From a virus (Duplodnaviria; Heunggongvirae; Uroviricota; Caudoviricetes): a stretch of DNA of 27,584 nt. The DNA is taken from positions 1 to 27,584 of IMG/VR virus record IMGVR_UViG_640753024_000006; one strand, given 5' to 3'. Shown here one piece after another: positions 6,678 through 10,088 of the stretch. Numbering within the stretch: position 1 is the first letter of the stretch; each line of letters opens with the position of its first letter. Under the pieces are notes generated by a model. The model searched no databases and was not told the DNA's origin. It saw nothing but the letters and a program-made list of their open reading frames with translations. A program made the position numbers and the translations under genes.

Positions 6678-6956
6678 TTAGGGAAACTGGCGTCTTGCGT
6701 GGATCACGTTTACTACTTCAACGCTTGATGTTGTTACGCGGTATAGAATTATATAGTTAGGGTGGGCTACAATCTCACGCAAGCCAGGTACTCTGTCGCT
6801 TGGTGGGTATAAATACGGATGTTCGGATAACGGCAGCACACAACCCCTTAATCGCTGCCATAAGCGTTCAGCCGCATCTATGTCGAAACGAGCAATATAA
6901 CTAGTTATATCATCTAGGTCGGTATCTGCGCTTTCAAGCCATAACACGGGTAACAT
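6678..6956 (-). CDS. Type II toxin, RelE/ParE superfamily
   Basis: About 92 aa; C-terminal IILYRV...VEVVNVIHARR is typical of ParE/RelE toxins; ATG at 6956 directly follows the antitoxin stop (6958-6960). Confidence 0.7.
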   Translation of the reverse strand: MLPVLWLESADTDLDDITSYIARFDIDAAERLWQRLRGCVLPLSEHPYLYPPSDRVPGLREIVAHPNYIILYRVTTSSVEVVNVIHARRQFP

Positions 6957-6957
6957 T

Positions 6958-7149
6958 TTACTGCTTGCTCCGTTCCTTGCGCATCTTAGCAAAGCGTTCT
7001 GCCATTCTGCGCTCAATTTCGTCATGGGGAATTGCTGGGCGCGGATCTGCAAGGCTCGCTGCTACTTTCGCACGCAGCCATTCGTTGTAACTGTTTTCTT
7101 GTTCAATGGTTTCAAATTCAGAAACCATTGGTGAAAGGGCTCTATTCAT
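6958..7149 (-). CDS. Putative type II antitoxin (family uncertain, ParD/stability-determinant-like)
   Basis: 63-aa acidic/basic ORF immediately upstream of and abutting the toxin; GGAGGA RBS before ATG 7149. Confidence 0.6.
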   Translation of the reverse strand: MNRALSPMVSEFETIEQENSYNEWLRAKVAASLADPRPAIPHDEIERRMAERFAKMRKERSKQ

Positions 7150-7169
7150 GTTTCCTCCGGTTTTATAAC

Positions 7170-7541
7170 TCAGGCGCGGCGGCATTTTTGCGCCGCAATC
7201 CATCTCGCTATGAGATCTTCCATTGATTCTTTTTTCTGCTTTAACTCGCTGATTATCTGGCGTTGCTCATCCTCAGGGAAGGCTGAAAAAATCTGCAATA
7301 ACTCCAGTTGATTAGACGTTAACCCTGCATGTGGTGGAGAAACCCCCGGTTGCTCTGAGTATTCCGCATCCAGATACCCTTCCGGCATCCCGTATGTTTG
7401 CTCTATTCTTCTGGCAGCCTTTTCTCCAAACGAGGCTCTCCCACTCATTAGTTGAGATAGGTAGCTCTTCTCTTTGGGTGGCAGAGTTTTATCTTTAAAC
7501 CACTCCTTGAGACGTAAACGGCGAATTTCTTTTTTTTGCAT
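7170..7541 (-). CDS. Prophage repressor, DicA/RacR-like (HTH_XRE N-terminus, DicA-like C-terminus)
   Basis: N-terminal HTH-like segment (SYLSQLMSGRASFGEKAARRIEQTYGM) and C-terminal LELLQIFSAFPEDEQ, similar to DicA as I recall it; divergent from a Cro-like gene. Start taken at ATG 7541; the longer track ORF would run into the operator region. Confidence 0.7.
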   Translation of the reverse strand: MQKKEIRRLRLKEWFKDKTLPPKEKSYLSQLMSGRASFGEKAARRIEQTYGMPEGYLDAEYSEQPGVSPPHAGLTSNQLELLQIFSAFPEDEQRQIISELKQKKESMEDLIARWIAAQKCRRA

Positions 7542-7639: not shown

Positions 7640-7942
7640 ATGACATTAAAAGAGTTTATTAAATCATTAAGGGTTGGTGATGCTAAGAAATTCGCGGCCA
7701 GACTTGGTGTATCGCCATCTTACTTATCGCAAATGGCGTCTGGACGAACAGCTATATCTCCAACCCGCGCCCTTATGATCGAATCTGCGACGGAAGGCCA
7801 AGTAAGTAGGGCGGAGCTACGACCCCATGATTGGGAGCTTATTTGGCCTGAGTATGCGAGCGGCATTCGTTTGGGGCAAACACATGTAGTTCATGCTGAA
7901 GGTGATTGTAGTGCATGCTTATCTGATGGAGTTGATTCATGA
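7640..7942 (+). CDS. Cro-like HTH regulator (YdaS-like)
   Basis: 100 aa; HTH-like AARLGVSPSYLSQMASGRTAISP; GAGGAAGG RBS; divergent from the repressor. Confidence 0.65.
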   Translation: MTLKEFIKSLRVGDAKKFAARLGVSPSYLSQMASGRTAISPTRALMIESATEGQVSRAELRPHDWELIWPEYASGIRLGQTHVVHAEGDCSACLSDGVDS

Positions 7943-8364
7943 AAATCAAGCATGAACACATCCGCATGGCGATGAATGCCTGGGCGCATCCGGACGGTGA
8001 AAAAGTTCCGGCAGCTGAAATAACCCGGGCTTATTTTGAGCTGGGTATGACGTTCCCGGAACTGTATGACGACAGCCATCCGGAAGCCCTGGCTCGCAAT
8101 ACTCAGAAAATTTTCCGCTGGGTGGAGAAAGATACTCCTGATGCGGTTAAAAAAATTCAGGCGTTGTTACCGGCTATCGAAAAAGCAATGCCACCTTTGC
8201 TGGTGGCCAGAATGCGCAGCCACAGTTCAGCTTATTTTCGGGAGCTGGTGGAGATGCGGGAACGACTGGTGAGAGACGCTGATGATTTTGTCGCAGTGGC
8301 GATCGCTGGTTTCAATCAGATGAATCGTGGTGGCCCGGCAGGAAATGCCTTGGTGATGCACTAA
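7939..8364 (+). CDS. YdaT-like protein (CII-position; Rac YdaT family is reported toxic when derepressed)
   Basis: 141 aa; ATGA overlap with the cro-like stop; position and size match Rac ydaT; family assignment from memory. Confidence 0.5.
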   Translation: MKIKHEHIRMAMNAWAHPDGEKVPAAEITRAYFELGMTFPELYDDSHPEALARNTQKIFRWVEKDTPDAVKKIQALLPAIEKAMPPLLVARMRSHSSAYFRELVEMRERLVRDADDFVAVAIAGFNQMNRGGPAGNALVMH

Positions 8365-8387: not shown

Positions 8388-9335
8388 ATGAGCAGCAAGC
8401 TTCATGGTCTTGTCTGGGAAGGGTGTGCCTTCACCGGCATGATCTTATCCAGGGTGGCAGTTATGGCTCGCCTTGCAGATTACAGCAATGACGAAGGTGT
8501 GTCATGGCCTGCAGTGGAGACCATTCGTCGTCAGATTGGGGCAAAGAGTGAATCAACGGTTAAAGCTGCGATAGCAGAACTGGAAAAGAACGGCTGGCTG
8601 ACGAAGGAGGAACGTAAGGTCGGTGGGCGTAATGAAAGCAATATCTACCGTCTTAATGTGGAAAAACTCGAAGCAGCAGCAGCGGCAGCGCGTGAGGCAT
8701 ATAAACCGAAAAGAAAAATTAGCCAGGCAAAAAATGACCCGTCAAATATTGACCCCTCAACGGTTGACCCGTCAAATTTTGATGGATCAACCGTTGATAA
8801 AAAACAGCCGGTTAGGGGGGCGATGGTTGGCCCTGATCCGTCAGTATTAAAACCTGATCCGTCAGATAAAAGATCTTTTCGTCCGGAAGCTTCGCAACCG
8901 GACATGCAGACGGCTGAACAGGATTTTTTAACCCGACACCCTGACGCGGTTGTGTTCAGTGCGAAAAAACGCCAGTGGGGTAGCCAGGAAGATTTAGCGT
9001 GTGCGCAGTGGATCTGGGGGCGAATCGTGAGTCTTTACGAGCAGGCCGCCAGCGATGATGGCGAGATTTCGCGACCGAAAGAACCCAACTGGACCGCATG
9101 GGCCAACGACGTGCGCACAATGCGGATGCTGGATGGCAGAACTCACAGACAAATTTGTGAAATGTTTGGTCGGGTGCAGCGGGATCCATTCTGGGTAAAA
9201 AATATCATGAGTCCGTCAAAGCTTCGCGAAAAATGGGATGAACTGGTTATCCGCCTGGGGCGTTCGTCTGTACAGCGTTGTGTGAATCATATTTCTGAGC
9301 CGGATACCGAAATTCCGCCGGGGTTCAGGGGGTAA
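8388..9335 (+). CDS. Replication initiation protein (lambda O-like role) with internal iterons
   Basis: 315 aa; N-terminal winged-helix-like region; central DPSNIDPSTVDPSNFDGSTVD peptide repeats encoded by DNA iterons; immediately upstream of a DnaC-like loader. Confidence 0.65.
   Translation: MSSKLHGLVWEGCAFTGMILSRVAVMARLADYSNDEGVSWPAVETIRRQIGAKSESTVKAAIAELEKNGWLTKEERKVGGRNESNIYRLNVEKLEAAAAAAREAYKPKRKISQAKNDPSNIDPSTVDPSNFDGSTVDKKQPVRGAMVGPDPSVLKPDPSDKRSFRPEASQPDMQTAEQDFLTRHPDAVVFSAKKRQWGSQEDLACAQWIWGRIVSLYEQAASDDGEISRPKEPNWTAWANDVRTMRMLDGRTHRQICEMFGRVQRDPFWVKNIMSPSKLREKWDELVIRLGRSSVQRCVNHISEPDTEIPPGFRG
8736..8865 (+). repeat. Putative origin iterons inside the initiator gene
   Basis: Four tandem 15-bp repeats (gacccgtcaaatatt, gacccctcaacggtt, gacccgtcaaatttt, gatggatcaaccgtt) at 8736-8795, plus two ctgatccgtcag repeats at 8833-8865. 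Confidence 0.65.
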
Positions 9336-9341
9336 CGGGCC

Positions 9342-10088
9342 ATGAAAAATATCGCGGCAGGTGGTGTTCTTGAGCGTATCCGTAAGCTGGCCCCGCAGCA
9401 TGTAATCGCGCCGTACCGGACAGTGGACGAGTGGCGCGAGTGGCAACTGGCAGAAGGGCGAAAACGTAGCGAGGAGATCAACCGCCAGAATCGCCAGTTG
9501 CGGGTGGAGAAAATCCTGAATCGTTCGGGCATCCAGCCTCTGCACAGCAAATGCTCGTTTGCGAATTATCAGGTGCAGAATGACGGGCAAAAACACGCGC
9601 TGAGCCAGGCAAAATCCATCGCTGACGAACTGATGACCGGGTGCACGAATTTTGTGTTCAGCGGTAAGCCGGGTACCGGAAAGAACCACCTTGCAGCCGC
9701 CATTGGTAATCATCTTCTGGCGAAAGGTCGCAGCGTGATTGTGATAACGGTGGCTGATGTGATGCTGGCGTTACACAACAGCTACGACAACAAAAACTCA
9801 GGCGAAAAATTTTTACAGGGGTTGTGTGATGTTGACCTGCTTGTCCTGGATGAAATCGGAATGCAGCGGGATACGCGCAACGAGCAGGTCACGCTGAACC
9901 AGATAGTCGACCGCAGAACGGCTTCGATGCGCAGTGTCGGAATGCTGACAAACCTGAACCACGTAGCGATGAGTACGCTTCTTGGTGAGCGTGTAATGGA
10001 CCGCATGGTCATGAACGGTGGTCGCTGGGTGAATTTTAACTGGGAGAGCTGGCGTTCGAATGTCAGGCACCTGAGGGTTGTGAAGTAA
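9342..10088 (+). CDS. DnaC-like helicase loader (AAA+ ATPase, IstB-like)
   Basis: Walker A GKPGTGKNHLAAAIG and Walker B DLLVLDEIG; 248 aa; follows the initiator gene. Confidence 0.85.
   Translation: MKNIAAGGVLERIRKLAPQHVIAPYRTVDEWREWQLAEGRKRSEEINRQNRQLRVEKILNRSGIQPLHSKCSFANYQVQNDGQKHALSQAKSIADELMTGCTNFVFSGKPGTGKNHLAAAIGNHLLAKGRSVIVITVADVMLALHNSYDNKNSGEKFLQGLCDVDLLVLDEIGMQRDTRNEQVTLNQIVDRRTASMRSVGMLTNLNHVAMSTLLGERVMDRMVMNGGRWVNFNWESWRSNVRHLRVVK

What the first reader, a model, noticed from the sequence alone, without database searches (positions are those of the whole stretch)
8736..8865. Iteron array (putative replication origin) inside the initiator gene
Four tandem 15-bp repeats, followed by an A-rich stretch and two further related 12-bp repeats, lie within the initiator ORF and are translated as repeated DPS-x-hydrophobic peptides. 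This is the lambda-type arrangement of an origin inside the O gene.
Basis: partly seen in the sequence, partly recalled or inferred. Interest (0 to 1): 0.4.

Follow-up and report, generated by a model that had tools for sequence, protein, structure and literature searches.

The report
Prophage replication-origin repeats inside initiator gene
The repeats are real and are almost certainly the binding sites (origin of replication) for the prophage's own replication initiator, placed inside that initiator's gene as in phage lambda, which makes this a well-supported but ordinary new example of a known arrangement.

Summary
Window 8734-8865 holds six copies of the core TGAYSSNTCA. Four are 12-bp dyad-symmetric sites spaced 15 bp apart, and the fourth is inverted. 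Two are exact CTGATCCGTCAG copies 21 bp apart.

They lie in ORF 8388-9335. This ORF encodes an O-like initiator with three parts:
- an N-terminal winged-helix HTH_36 domain;
- a linker predicted to be disordered, which is the part the repeats encode;
- a C-terminal domain 37% identical to that of phage phi80 replication protein gp15.

A DnaC-like loader gene follows.

The constraint acts on the DNA, not the peptide:
- Every serine in a repeat uses the rare codon TCA.
- In relatives the site occurs in both orientations, which changes the peptide from DPS to EGS.
- Synonymous sites are frozen in the repeats but randomised in the conserved N-domain.
- Copy number varies by 15-bp steps.

78 of 81 homologous genes across Enterobacterales carry such arrays at the same place. 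Within the family, the bases flanking each site track the N-domain clade. More distant HTH_36 initiators carry quite different repeats at that place. phi80 has annotated gp15-binding sites at the equivalent position.

Caveats: nothing has been shown experimentally, and no strong AT-rich unwinding element is present.

Verdict: this is a lambda-type origin inside the initiator gene and a new member of a known kind.

The parts
8388..9335 (+). Replication initiator gene (315 aa, O-like), made of an N-terminal winged-helix domain, a disordered linker and a C-terminal domain
   Evidence: ORF. phrog_391 at 2.5e-113. HTH_36 over aa 25-71. AlphaFold model.
8388..8702 (+). Coding region for the N-terminal winged helix-turn-helix domain (aa 1-105), the presumed iteron-binding domain
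   Evidence: Pfam HTH_36. The model shows helices plus a beta-hairpin wing with pLDDT 72-88. Only generic dimeric wHTH regulators match it in the PDB.
8699..8734 (.). A-rich, purine-skewed left flank (about 72% A+T), one of two weak candidates for the unwinding region
   Evidence: Sequence. AT skew 0.6-0.7. The 30-mer 8693-8722 has dG -34.5 against a window mean of -40.8.
8734..8745 (+). Iteron 1, ATGACCCGTCAA
8749..8760 (+). Iteron 2, TTGACCCCTCAA
8764..8775 (+). Iteron 3, TTGACCCGTCAA (perfect 5-bp arms)
8779..8790 (-). Iteron 4, TTGATGGATCAA: the same motif in reverse orientation (GG centre, peptide DGS). It contains a GATC.
   Evidence: Together with iteron 3 it forms a 41-bp near-palindrome (I1).
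8794..8805 (+). Half-site plus A6 run, TTGATAAAAAAC, at the end of the 15-bp-phased array
   Evidence: Relatives carry the equivalent 'GGCAAAAAA'.
8812..8834 (.). Degenerate relic of an inverted site pair: TTAGGGGGGCGA TGG TTGGCCCT, where Erwinia and Edwardsiella have TTAAGGGGTCAA TGG TTGACCCC
8833..8844 (+). Distal site 1, CTGATCCGTCAG: the same core as the iterons, with a GATC
   Evidence: In homologues the Asp codon here is GAT in 151 of 157 such units.
8854..8865 (+). Distal site 2, CTGATCCGTCAG, 21 bp after site 1, with a GATC
8845..8879 (.). Moderately A+T-rich stretch around and after distal site 2 (about 64% A+T). It is the least stable 30-mer inside the gene and the likeliest unwinding region by analogy with lambda, where the order is iterons then AT-rich region.
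   Evidence: 8845-8874 has dG -34.2, in the top 3.3% of the window. The assignment is an inference and the signal is weak.
8881..8903 (.). Inverted repeat GTCCGG-N11-CCGGAC at the junction with the C-domain module
   Evidence: Sequence. A 23-nt element of this form was found in 46 of 81 homologues, in two variants. Its function is unknown.
8904..9335 (+). Coding region for the C-terminal domain (aa 173-315), homologous to phi80 gp15 and ending in a DnaT-like tail. It is presumed to contact the helicase loader or helicase.
   Evidence: 37% identity to phi80 gp15, E 2e-26. pLDDT about 90. The tail is 53% identical to the DnaT C-terminus. It is exchanged as a separate module starting at window 8868.
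9342..10088 (+). DnaC-like helicase loader gene
   Evidence: phrog_50. NCBIfam PRK12377 at 1.7e-150. 50% identical to E. coli DnaC.

Best explanation
The repeats are the iterons of this lambdoid prophage's replication origin. They sit inside the initiator gene, in the segment that encodes the flexible linker between the protein's two domains.

**Proposed mechanism**
1. Rightward early transcription from the cro-side promoter makes the initiator.
2. Dimers of its N-terminal winged-helix domain bind the 12-bp dyad-symmetric sites. Four are packed at 15-bp spacing. Two more distal sites contain GATC.
3. The resulting nucleoprotein complex destabilises a neighbouring moderately A+T-rich stretch, most likely 8845-8879.
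4. The C-terminal domain, which is phi80-gp15-like with a DnaT-like tail, brings in the phage DnaC-like loader and host DnaB.

**Shown here**
- The sites exist, are dyad-symmetric and are statistically non-random.
- They are conserved as DNA rather than as peptide.
- They co-vary with the N-domain.
- Their number varies in 15-bp steps.
- They encode a linker predicted to be disordered.
- They occupy the same place as the annotated gp15 sites of phi80.

**Inferred, not shown**
- That the initiator binds them.
- That replication starts here.
- Where the DNA unwinds.
- Which protein contacts the C-domain makes.
For: 1. **Non-random cluster.** Exact TGAYCCNTCA matches number six, all in 8735-8864. 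Zero of 100 shuffles reach the observed TGAYSSNTCA count.
2. **Codon-level constraint.** In the window, 6 of 6 repeat serines are TCA against 3 of 21 elsewhere in the gene. Across 81 homologues, linker serines are 54% TCA plus 31% TCT (position-specific), against 16% TCA elsewhere, and the linker fraction is higher in 79 of 81 genes.
3. **Orientation.** In the closest clade the site TTGA-SSSS-TCAA occurs with CCCC and with GGGG centres, giving DPS/DPP or EGS/EGL peptides. Morganella L018 has only GGGG units and no DPS peptide.
4. **Synonymous sites.** At conserved residues of the N-domain the commonest codon averages 0.53, and Asp is about 50:50 GAT/GAC. In the distal sites Asp is GAT in 151 of 157, Pro is CCR in 156 of 157, and the third codon is TCA, CAA or TTA, so the amino acid changes while the DNA is kept.
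5. **Presence in homologues.** 78 of 81 genes, retrieved through N-domain motifs only, carry at least three units in 15-bp phase, with a mode of 5 and up to 9.
6. **Copy-number changes in unit steps.** L002 has one extra 15-bp unit. Edwardsiella L019 and L021 differ by 45 bp. E. coli proteins more than 90% identical carry 2, 3, 4 or 5 units.
7. **Co-variation within the family.** N-domain clade A (HTH 'QIGAKS..TV.AAI') has T-flanked sites with ATA or CGG spacers. Clade B ('GAG.STVRTAI') has C-flanked sites with AAT spacers.
8. **Co-variation with distant relatives.** Distant HTH_36 initiators have unrelated repeats at the same place: Min27 has 3 x GGGGTGGGGCAGGAGCTGCCC, ZF40 has 2 x 44 nt, and a Vibrio phage has GGTCAAATTCCGACC.
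9. **Cassette swap with phi80.** phi80 gp15 has a homologous C-domain, but a Phage_rep_O N-domain and its own four annotated gp15-binding sites at the same relative position.
10. **The protein tolerates it.** Residues 109-168 are predicted disordered, with pLDDT below 50.
11. **Precedents.** In lambda and Stx phages the origin lies in the middle of O (PMC7466680, PMC3349717). In pSK41 the Rep boxes lie centrally in rep and encode a dispensable linker, and the pPR9 Rep has a pfam13730 N-terminal domain with its own origin and a working mini-replicon (PMC5703833).
Against: - No experiment supports binding or origin activity.
- No lambda-like AT-rich unwinding element is present. The least stable 30-mers near the array are only in the top ~3% of the window.
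- The 15-bp spacing is off the helical repeat. It differs from lambda (18-bp iterons, about 22-bp period) and from phi80 (about 21 bp).
- The core motif is so widely shared among relatives with 45-65% identical N-domains that it could in principle be recognised by a conserved host or phage factor other than the initiator.
- The structure search returned only generic winged-helix regulators. The fold therefore supports DNA binding but not an initiator function as such.
- The prophage may be defective.
Confidence: 0.8

Rival explanations
1. The sites are bound by the initiator, but for control rather than initiation. Examples would be autoregulation by a transcriptional roadblock inside its own gene, titration or handcuffing. 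On this view the true origin lies elsewhere.
For: Iterons in plasmids serve both roles (general knowledge; review PMC4980987 was listed but not read). No clear AT-rich unwinding element lies next to the array.
Against: No other repeat array occurs near the replication genes: the other tandem repeats in the window have at most 2.6 copies and lie in unrelated places. The position is equivalent to the origins of lambda, phi80 and pSK41. The N-domain and its sites travel together as one cassette, as expected if together they specify an origin.
Confidence: 0.08
2. The repeats are a protein feature only: a repetitive, flexible DPS-rich linker that expanded by slippage, with no role for the DNA sequence.
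For: The region encodes a linker predicted to be disordered. Unit number varies freely.
Against: The peptide is not conserved while the DNA motif is. Orientation flips give EGS in place of DPS. The distal-site codon changes among Ser, Gln and Leu while keeping xxA. Repeat serines are fixed on the rare codon TCA. Synonymous positions are frozen only here. Each unit is dyad-symmetric, which a peptide repeat does not require.
Confidence: 0.03
3. The sites are recognised by a different factor, and the link to the initiator gene is positional only. Candidates are a host protein, SeqA or Dam acting through the GATC sites, or another phage regulator such as the YdaT-like protein.
For: The core TGAnnnnTCA and the GATC-bearing distal pair are nearly invariant across N-domains only 45-65% identical. 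Four GATC sites cluster in 8785-8875.
Against: Site flanks and spacers track the N-domain clade. Distant HTH_36 initiators have quite different repeats. phi80, which has another N-domain but the same C-domain, has other sites. The upstream regulators differ among the homologous loci (RacR/YdaS/YdaT-type here; cI, cro and cII types) while the repeats stay.
Confidence: 0.06

Closest known systems
Phage lambda origin (ori-lambda) inside gene O, and its Stx-phage variants
   Same: - Several initiator-binding repeats with internal dyad symmetry lie in the middle of the initiator gene, downstream of the cro/cII region (PMC7466680, PMC3349717).
- The initiator has two domains.
- Iteron number varies between relatives: 4 in lambda, 6 in Stx phages.
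   Different: - The N-domain is Pfam HTH_36, not Phage_rep_O.
- The sites are 12 bp at 15-bp spacing, against 18 bp at about 22 bp.
- The array mixes orientations.
- There is no 38-bp highly AT-rich tract.
- The partner is a DnaC-like ATPase, not lambda P.
Phage phi80 origin inside gene 15 (four gp15-binding sites annotated in JX871397)
   Same: - The C-terminal domain is homologous: 37% identity, E 2e-26.
- The binding sites lie immediately upstream of that domain.
- The two share the junction sequence AAAAGATCT(T)TCGTCCG.
   Different: - phi80 has a Phage_rep_O N-domain.
- Its iterons are unrelated (TTCCCGAAAACGGGAA-type, about 21-bp period).
- Its partner gp14 is lambda-P-like.
pSK41-type RepA_N plasmid replicons, and the chimeric pPR9 Rep
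   Same: - Four Rep boxes lie centrally within the rep gene.
- The segment encoded by the origin is a dispensable linker between a winged-helix N-terminal domain that binds the boxes and a C-terminal domain that recruits host replication proteins.
- pPR9 carries a pfam13730 (HTH_36) N-terminal domain plus its own origin as an exchangeable ~500-bp cassette, and it replicates (all from PMC5703833).
   Different: - They are Gram-positive plasmids.
- The RepA_N domain is not detected here.
- The pSK41 C-terminal domain binds DnaG primase.
- Copy control there is by antisense RNA.
Iteron-regulated theta plasmids (Rep_3 family: pPS10, F, R6K, pSC101)
   Same: Arrays of repeated initiator-binding sites bound by winged-helix initiators.
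   Different: - No Rep_3 domain is present.
- Plasmid iterons are typically about 19-22 bp, phased with the helix, and lie outside the rep gene (my own knowledge).

Membership tests
Lambdoid origin inside the initiator gene (lambda/phi80 type) | Array of repeated sites inside the initiator ORF, between the DNA-binding and C-terminal domains | tested here: met
   Six sites at 8734-8865 lie within ORF 8388-9335. They fall in the linker predicted for aa 109-168.
Lambdoid origin inside the initiator gene (lambda/phi80 type) | Each site has internal dyad symmetry | tested here: met
   TTGAC-NN-GTCAA, with 3-4 of 4 outer arm positions complementary in all four units and in the distal sites.
Lambdoid origin inside the initiator gene (lambda/phi80 type) | Adjacent strongly AT-rich unwinding region (38 bp in lambda) | tested here: not met
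   There are only 64-72% A+T patches. The least stable 30-mers (8845-8874, 8693-8722) are in the top ~3% of the window, not outliers.
Lambdoid origin inside the initiator gene (lambda/phi80 type) | Genomic position in the early right operon after cro/cII-type genes, followed by a helicase-loading partner | tested here: met
   YdaS-like cro at 7640-7942, YdaT-like gene at 7939-8364, initiator, then DnaC-like gene at 9342-10088.
Lambdoid origin inside the initiator gene (lambda/phi80 type) | Initiator N-domain of the Phage_rep_O family (PF04492) | tested here: not met
   Pfam gives HTH_36 only. phi80 gp15 gives Phage_rep_O.
Lambdoid origin inside the initiator gene (lambda/phi80 type) | C-terminal domain related to a known lambdoid initiator | tested here: met
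   37% identity over 120 aa to phi80 gp15, E 2e-26.
Lambdoid origin inside the initiator gene (lambda/phi80 type) | The initiator binds the repeats, and the fragment supports initiator-dependent replication | not testable with these tools
   This needs EMSA or footprinting and a trans-complementation replication assay.
HTH_36 (pfam13730) replication initiators with an internal origin (e.g. pPR9 Rep) | HTH_36 domain above Pfam's gathering score | tested here: met
   33.1 bits against a cut-off of 25, E 5e-8, aa 25-71. Homologues in the protein database carry PF13730.
HTH_36 (pfam13730) replication initiators with an internal origin (e.g. pPR9 Rep) | The N-domain and its cognate repeats move together as a cassette | tested here: met
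   Megablast homology to other O-like genes starts at window 8868, just after the last repeat. Site flanks track the N-domain clade. Distant HTH_36 initiators have different repeats at the same place.
RepA_N plasmid initiators (pSK41) | RepA_N domain (PF06970) | tested here: not met
   No such Pfam hit at E <= 0.01. The resemblance is in architecture only.
Rep_3 iteron plasmids | Rep_3 domain (PF01051) and helically phased ~19-22-bp iterons outside rep | tested here: not met
   No Rep_3 hit. Sites are 12 bp with a 15-bp period and lie inside the gene.

The most novel reading that the evidence does not exclude
This origin family may work without a discrete AT-rich unwinding element. It would combine three features:
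- a tightly packed array of dyad sites at 15-bp spacing in mixed orientation;
- a near-universally conserved pair of initiator-type sites that each contain GATC;
- an adjacent conserved inverted repeat.

On this reading the Dam-methylation or SeqA state of the GATC sites gates initiator binding or origin firing, making it a methylation-timed phage origin. Several relatives encode their own Dam methylase right after the initiator, which would fit.
Probability: 0.15. Interest if true: 0.5.

Novelty: new member of a known kind. Interest (0 to 1): 0.3.

Why it matters
It assigns a concrete origin, with base-level sites, to a very common prophage replication module. Related initiator genes occur in 2945 of 5426 complete E. 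coli genomes and across Enterobacterales, where they are annotated only as 'helix-turn-helix domain-containing protein'.

It also gives a clean example of a DNA-binding domain and its binding sites being exchanged as one cassette on a common C-terminal domain.

Practical uses would include predicting replication incompatibility or cross-activation between co-resident prophages, building mini-replicons, and interpreting induced 'onion-skin' amplification around such prophages. It does not change how origins of this kind are understood.

Tried and rejected
- **AT-rich unwinding element.** I looked for a lambda-like element with a nearest-neighbour stability profile and found only weak minima.
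- **Internal promoters and terminators.** The scan gave nothing above shuffled expectation. One weak minus-strand terminator-like site overlaps iteron 1 (8741-8724), and I judged it to be chance.
- **Rac prophage oriJ/ydaU.** I tested whether this is the same element. YdaU has a DUF1376 N-domain, so it is not. The literature search for oriJ gave nothing usable.
- **Exact motif in papers.** A full-text search for TGACCCGTCA returned only unrelated primer hits.
- **SfIV genome paper.** It does not describe an origin. Within the searched library I found no description of this iteron family.
- **Sequence search of the PDB.** It matched only the DnaT-like C-terminal tail.
- **Foldseek search of the PDB.** It gave only generic winged-helix regulators, with no E <= 0.001. 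No specific structural relative among initiators was established.
- **Plasmid search.** Hits were mostly prophages on megaplasmids or chromosome-sized records. One 16-kb circular record (NZ_CP148542.1) holds the module but has homopolymer errors, and I cannot take it as proof of autonomous replication.
- **Alternative register.** I considered GTCAA-N3-TTGAC as the bound unit. I set it aside because the isolated distal sites have the TGAYCCRTCA form without neighbouring half-sites.

Full report
**Observation**

The sequence at 8734-8865 contains four 12-bp sites: ATGACCCGTCAA, TTGACCCCTCAA, TTGACCCGTCAA and TTGATGGATCAA. They start at 8734, 8749, 8764 and 8779, so the period is 15 bp. A half-site with an A6 run follows at 8794-8805. 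Two exact copies of CCTGATCCGTCAG sit at 8832-8844 and 8853-8865, 21 bp apart.

Tandem Repeats Finder reports the array. The core TGAYCCNTCA occurs exactly six times in the 27.6-kb window, all of them here. For TGAYSSNTCA, 15 strand-matches are observed against 2.08 +/- 1.82 in shuffles, and 0 of 100 shuffles reach 15.

Each unit is dyad-symmetric (TTGAC-NN-GTCAA). The fourth unit is the reverse complement of the motif. Iterons 3 and 4 together form a 41-bp near-palindrome.

**Context**

The window is an E. coli lambdoid prophage. The initiator gene is 99.7% identical to that of strain 720632, where it lies in a prophage with integrase, exonuclease, dicB, Q and lysis genes.

The ORF 8388-9335 lies after a RacR-like repressor, a YdaS-like cro and a YdaT-like gene. 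A DnaC-like loader follows it, 50% identical to E. coli DnaC.

The ORF product matches phrog_391 'replication initiation O-like' at 2.5e-113. It has a Pfam HTH_36 domain at aa 25-71.

An AlphaFold model built from 42 homologues gives three parts:
- a winged-helix N-domain, aa 1-105;
- a disordered stretch, aa 109-168, with pLDDT below 50;
- a confident helical C-domain, aa 173-290.

The disordered stretch is encoded by 8712-8891, which encloses the whole repeat array. The N-domain resembles only generic dimeric winged-helix regulators in the PDB.

**Is the constraint on DNA or on protein?** Four independent results point to DNA.

1. In the window all six repeat serines use TCA, against 3 of 21 elsewhere in the gene. 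In 81 non-identical homologues, linker serines are 54% TCA and 31% TCT. Each is fixed at its own position in the unit. Elsewhere TCA is 16%.
2. In the closest clade (Erwinia, Mixta, Edwardsiella, Morganella) the 12-bp site TTGA-SSSS-TCAA occurs with CCCC and with GGGG centres. These encode DPS/DPP and EGS/EGL respectively. Morganella has only GGGG units, so the 'DPS' peptide is absent while the DNA site is kept.
3. At conserved residues of the N-domain, synonymous codons are randomised: the commonest codon averages 0.53 and Asp is about 50:50 GAT/GAC. In the distal sites Asp is GAT in 151 of 157 and Pro is CCR in 156 of 157. The next codon is TCA, CAA or TTA, giving three different amino acids with the same last base.
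4. Copy number changes by whole units.
   - One extra 15 bp in an 89%-identical E. coli gene.
   - 45 bp between two Edwardsiella genes.
   - 2, 3, 4 or 5 units among E. coli proteins more than 90% identical.

**Are the repeats in homologous initiators?**

A scan of one genome per species, using patterns that lie only in the N-domain, returned 80 loci across Enterobacterales. Of 81 non-identical genes, 78 have at least three units in 15-bp phase at the same position. The mode is 5 and the maximum 9. Phages SfIV, SfII, phiP27 and YeP1 and several Klebsiella phages show the same.

**Do the sites follow the DNA-binding domain?**

Within the family, N-domain clade A includes the window and has the recognition region 'QIGAKS..TV.AAI'. 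Its sites are T-flanked with ATA or CGG spacers. Clade B ('GAG.STVRTAI') has C-flanked sites with AAT spacers.

More distant HTH_36 initiators carry unrelated repeats immediately after the N-domain:
- Min27: three copies of GGGGTGGGGCAGGAGCTGCCC;
- ZF40: two 44-nt copies;
- a Vibrio phage: GGTCAAATTCCGACC.

The C-terminal half behaves as a separate module. Megablast similarity to other O-like genes begins at window 8868, just after the last repeat.

Phage phi80 is the clearest comparison:
- Its gp15 C-domain is 37% identical to the window protein, E 2e-26.
- Its N-domain is Phage_rep_O.
- Its GenBank record annotates four gp15-binding sites with about a 21-bp period immediately upstream of the C-domain.

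The window gene is thus the phi80 arrangement with another [DNA-binding domain + sites] cassette.

**Mechanism**

Shown: the sites, their symmetry, their DNA-level conservation, their co-variation with the N-domain, their location in a dispensable-looking linker, and the neighbouring loader.

Inferred:
- Initiator dimers bind the sites and form a nucleoprotein complex.
- Nearby DNA melts.
- The C-domain recruits the DnaC-like loader with DnaB.

The inference rests on lambda and Stx phages, where the origin of iterons plus an AT-rich tract lies in the middle of O (PMC7466680, PMC3349717). It also rests on pSK41, where four Rep boxes lie centrally in rep and the origin-encoded linker is dispensable. 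pPR9 carries a pfam13730 N-terminal domain with its own origin and replicates (PMC5703833).

The weak point is the unwinding element. There is no 38-bp highly AT-rich tract. The least stable 30-mers near the array (8845-8874 and 8693-8722) are only in the top ~3% of the window. By the lambda order (iterons, then AT-rich region) I favour 8845-8879, with low confidence.

The 15-bp spacing puts neighbouring dimers about 154 degrees apart around the helix (my calculation, assuming 10.5 bp per turn). This differs from lambda and phi80.

**Rivals**

- A purely protein-level repeat is contradicted.
- Binding by another factor is made unlikely by the co-variation with the N-domain. The upstream regulators also vary among loci that keep the repeats.
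- A control-only role with the origin elsewhere cannot be excluded. No other array exists near the replication genes.

**Comparison and novelty**

It works like ori-lambda and ori-phi80, and architecturally like pSK41/pPR9. It is not a member of the Phage_rep_O, RepA_N or Rep_3 families, because those domains are absent. It is an HTH_36 initiator.

I found no description of this iteron family in the searched literature. The library is incomplete for older subscription papers.

My verdict is a new member of a known kind. Interest is modest.

Noticed in passing
window 9249-9335 and 9342-10088: The last 32 residues of the initiator (…VNHISEPDTEIPPGFRG) are 53% identical to the C-terminus of E. 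coli DnaT. The next gene is 50% identical to E. coli DnaC and lies in the same order and spacing as the host dnaT-dnaC operon. An '…IPxGFRG' tail recurs in most homologues whatever their C-domain type, which suggests a short motif that contacts the loader or helicase.
   Followed up: partly
window 8785-8875 (GATC at 8785, 8835, 8856, 8872): Four GATC sites fall within 91 bp, against one per ~405 bp in the window. The two distal sites contain GATC in 151 of 157 units across homologues. Several related phages (YeP1, vB_EcoS-733R5, ST101-KPC2phi6.3) encode a Dam-type methylase just downstream of the initiator. A link to Dam or SeqA is possible but untested.
   Followed up: partly
window 8881-8903: An inverted repeat GTCCGG-N11-CCGGAC lies at the junction with the C-domain module. 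A 23-nt element of this kind is present in 46 of 81 homologues in two variants (GTCCGG…CCGGAC, or GTCCGGTTGC-TGC-GCAACCCGAC). It occurs in genes with different C-domain types. Whether it matters as DNA or as peptide (…SCPxAxQPD…) is unresolved.
   Followed up: partly
window 8866-8885; L094 6770-6790 (phi80): The junction sequence AAAAGATCT(T)TCGTCCG is shared between the window and phi80 gene 15, although their N-domains and iterons are unrelated. It is a candidate recombination joint for cassette exchange, or part of the origin.
   Followed up: no
L095 (NZ_CP148542.1, whole 15,977-bp circular record): An E. coli record deposited as a plasmid consists only of cI, cro, this initiator (5-unit array), the DnaC-like gene, nin-region genes, Q and lysis genes. 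It has no structural genes. The initiator has two compensating homopolymer indels typical of long-read errors. It could be a lambda-dv-like circle or an assembly artefact.
   Followed up: partly
window 8812-8834: TTAGGGGGGCGA TGG TTGGCCCT is a decayed version of a perfect inverted pair of sites (TTAAGGGGTCAA TGG TTGACCCC) seen in the Erwinia, Edwardsiella and Mixta relatives. The window has therefore lost two sites that relatives keep.
   Followed up: partly
window 6678-7203 (- strand): Immediately left of the repressor gene lie a RelE/ParE-type toxin ORF (6678-7052) and an overlapping small ORF (6958-7203). The related locus L002 has an annotated RelE/ParE toxin and RelB antitoxin pair in the same position, just left of its repressor-side gene.
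   Followed up: no
L003 4120-4977 (E. coli K-12 Rac ydaU): The Rac prophage has the same layout (racR, ydaS, ydaT, initiator, DnaC-like ydaV). Its initiator YdaU has a DUF1376 N-domain instead of HTH_36, which is another cassette variant at the same position. I did not examine it for internal repeats.
   Followed up: no
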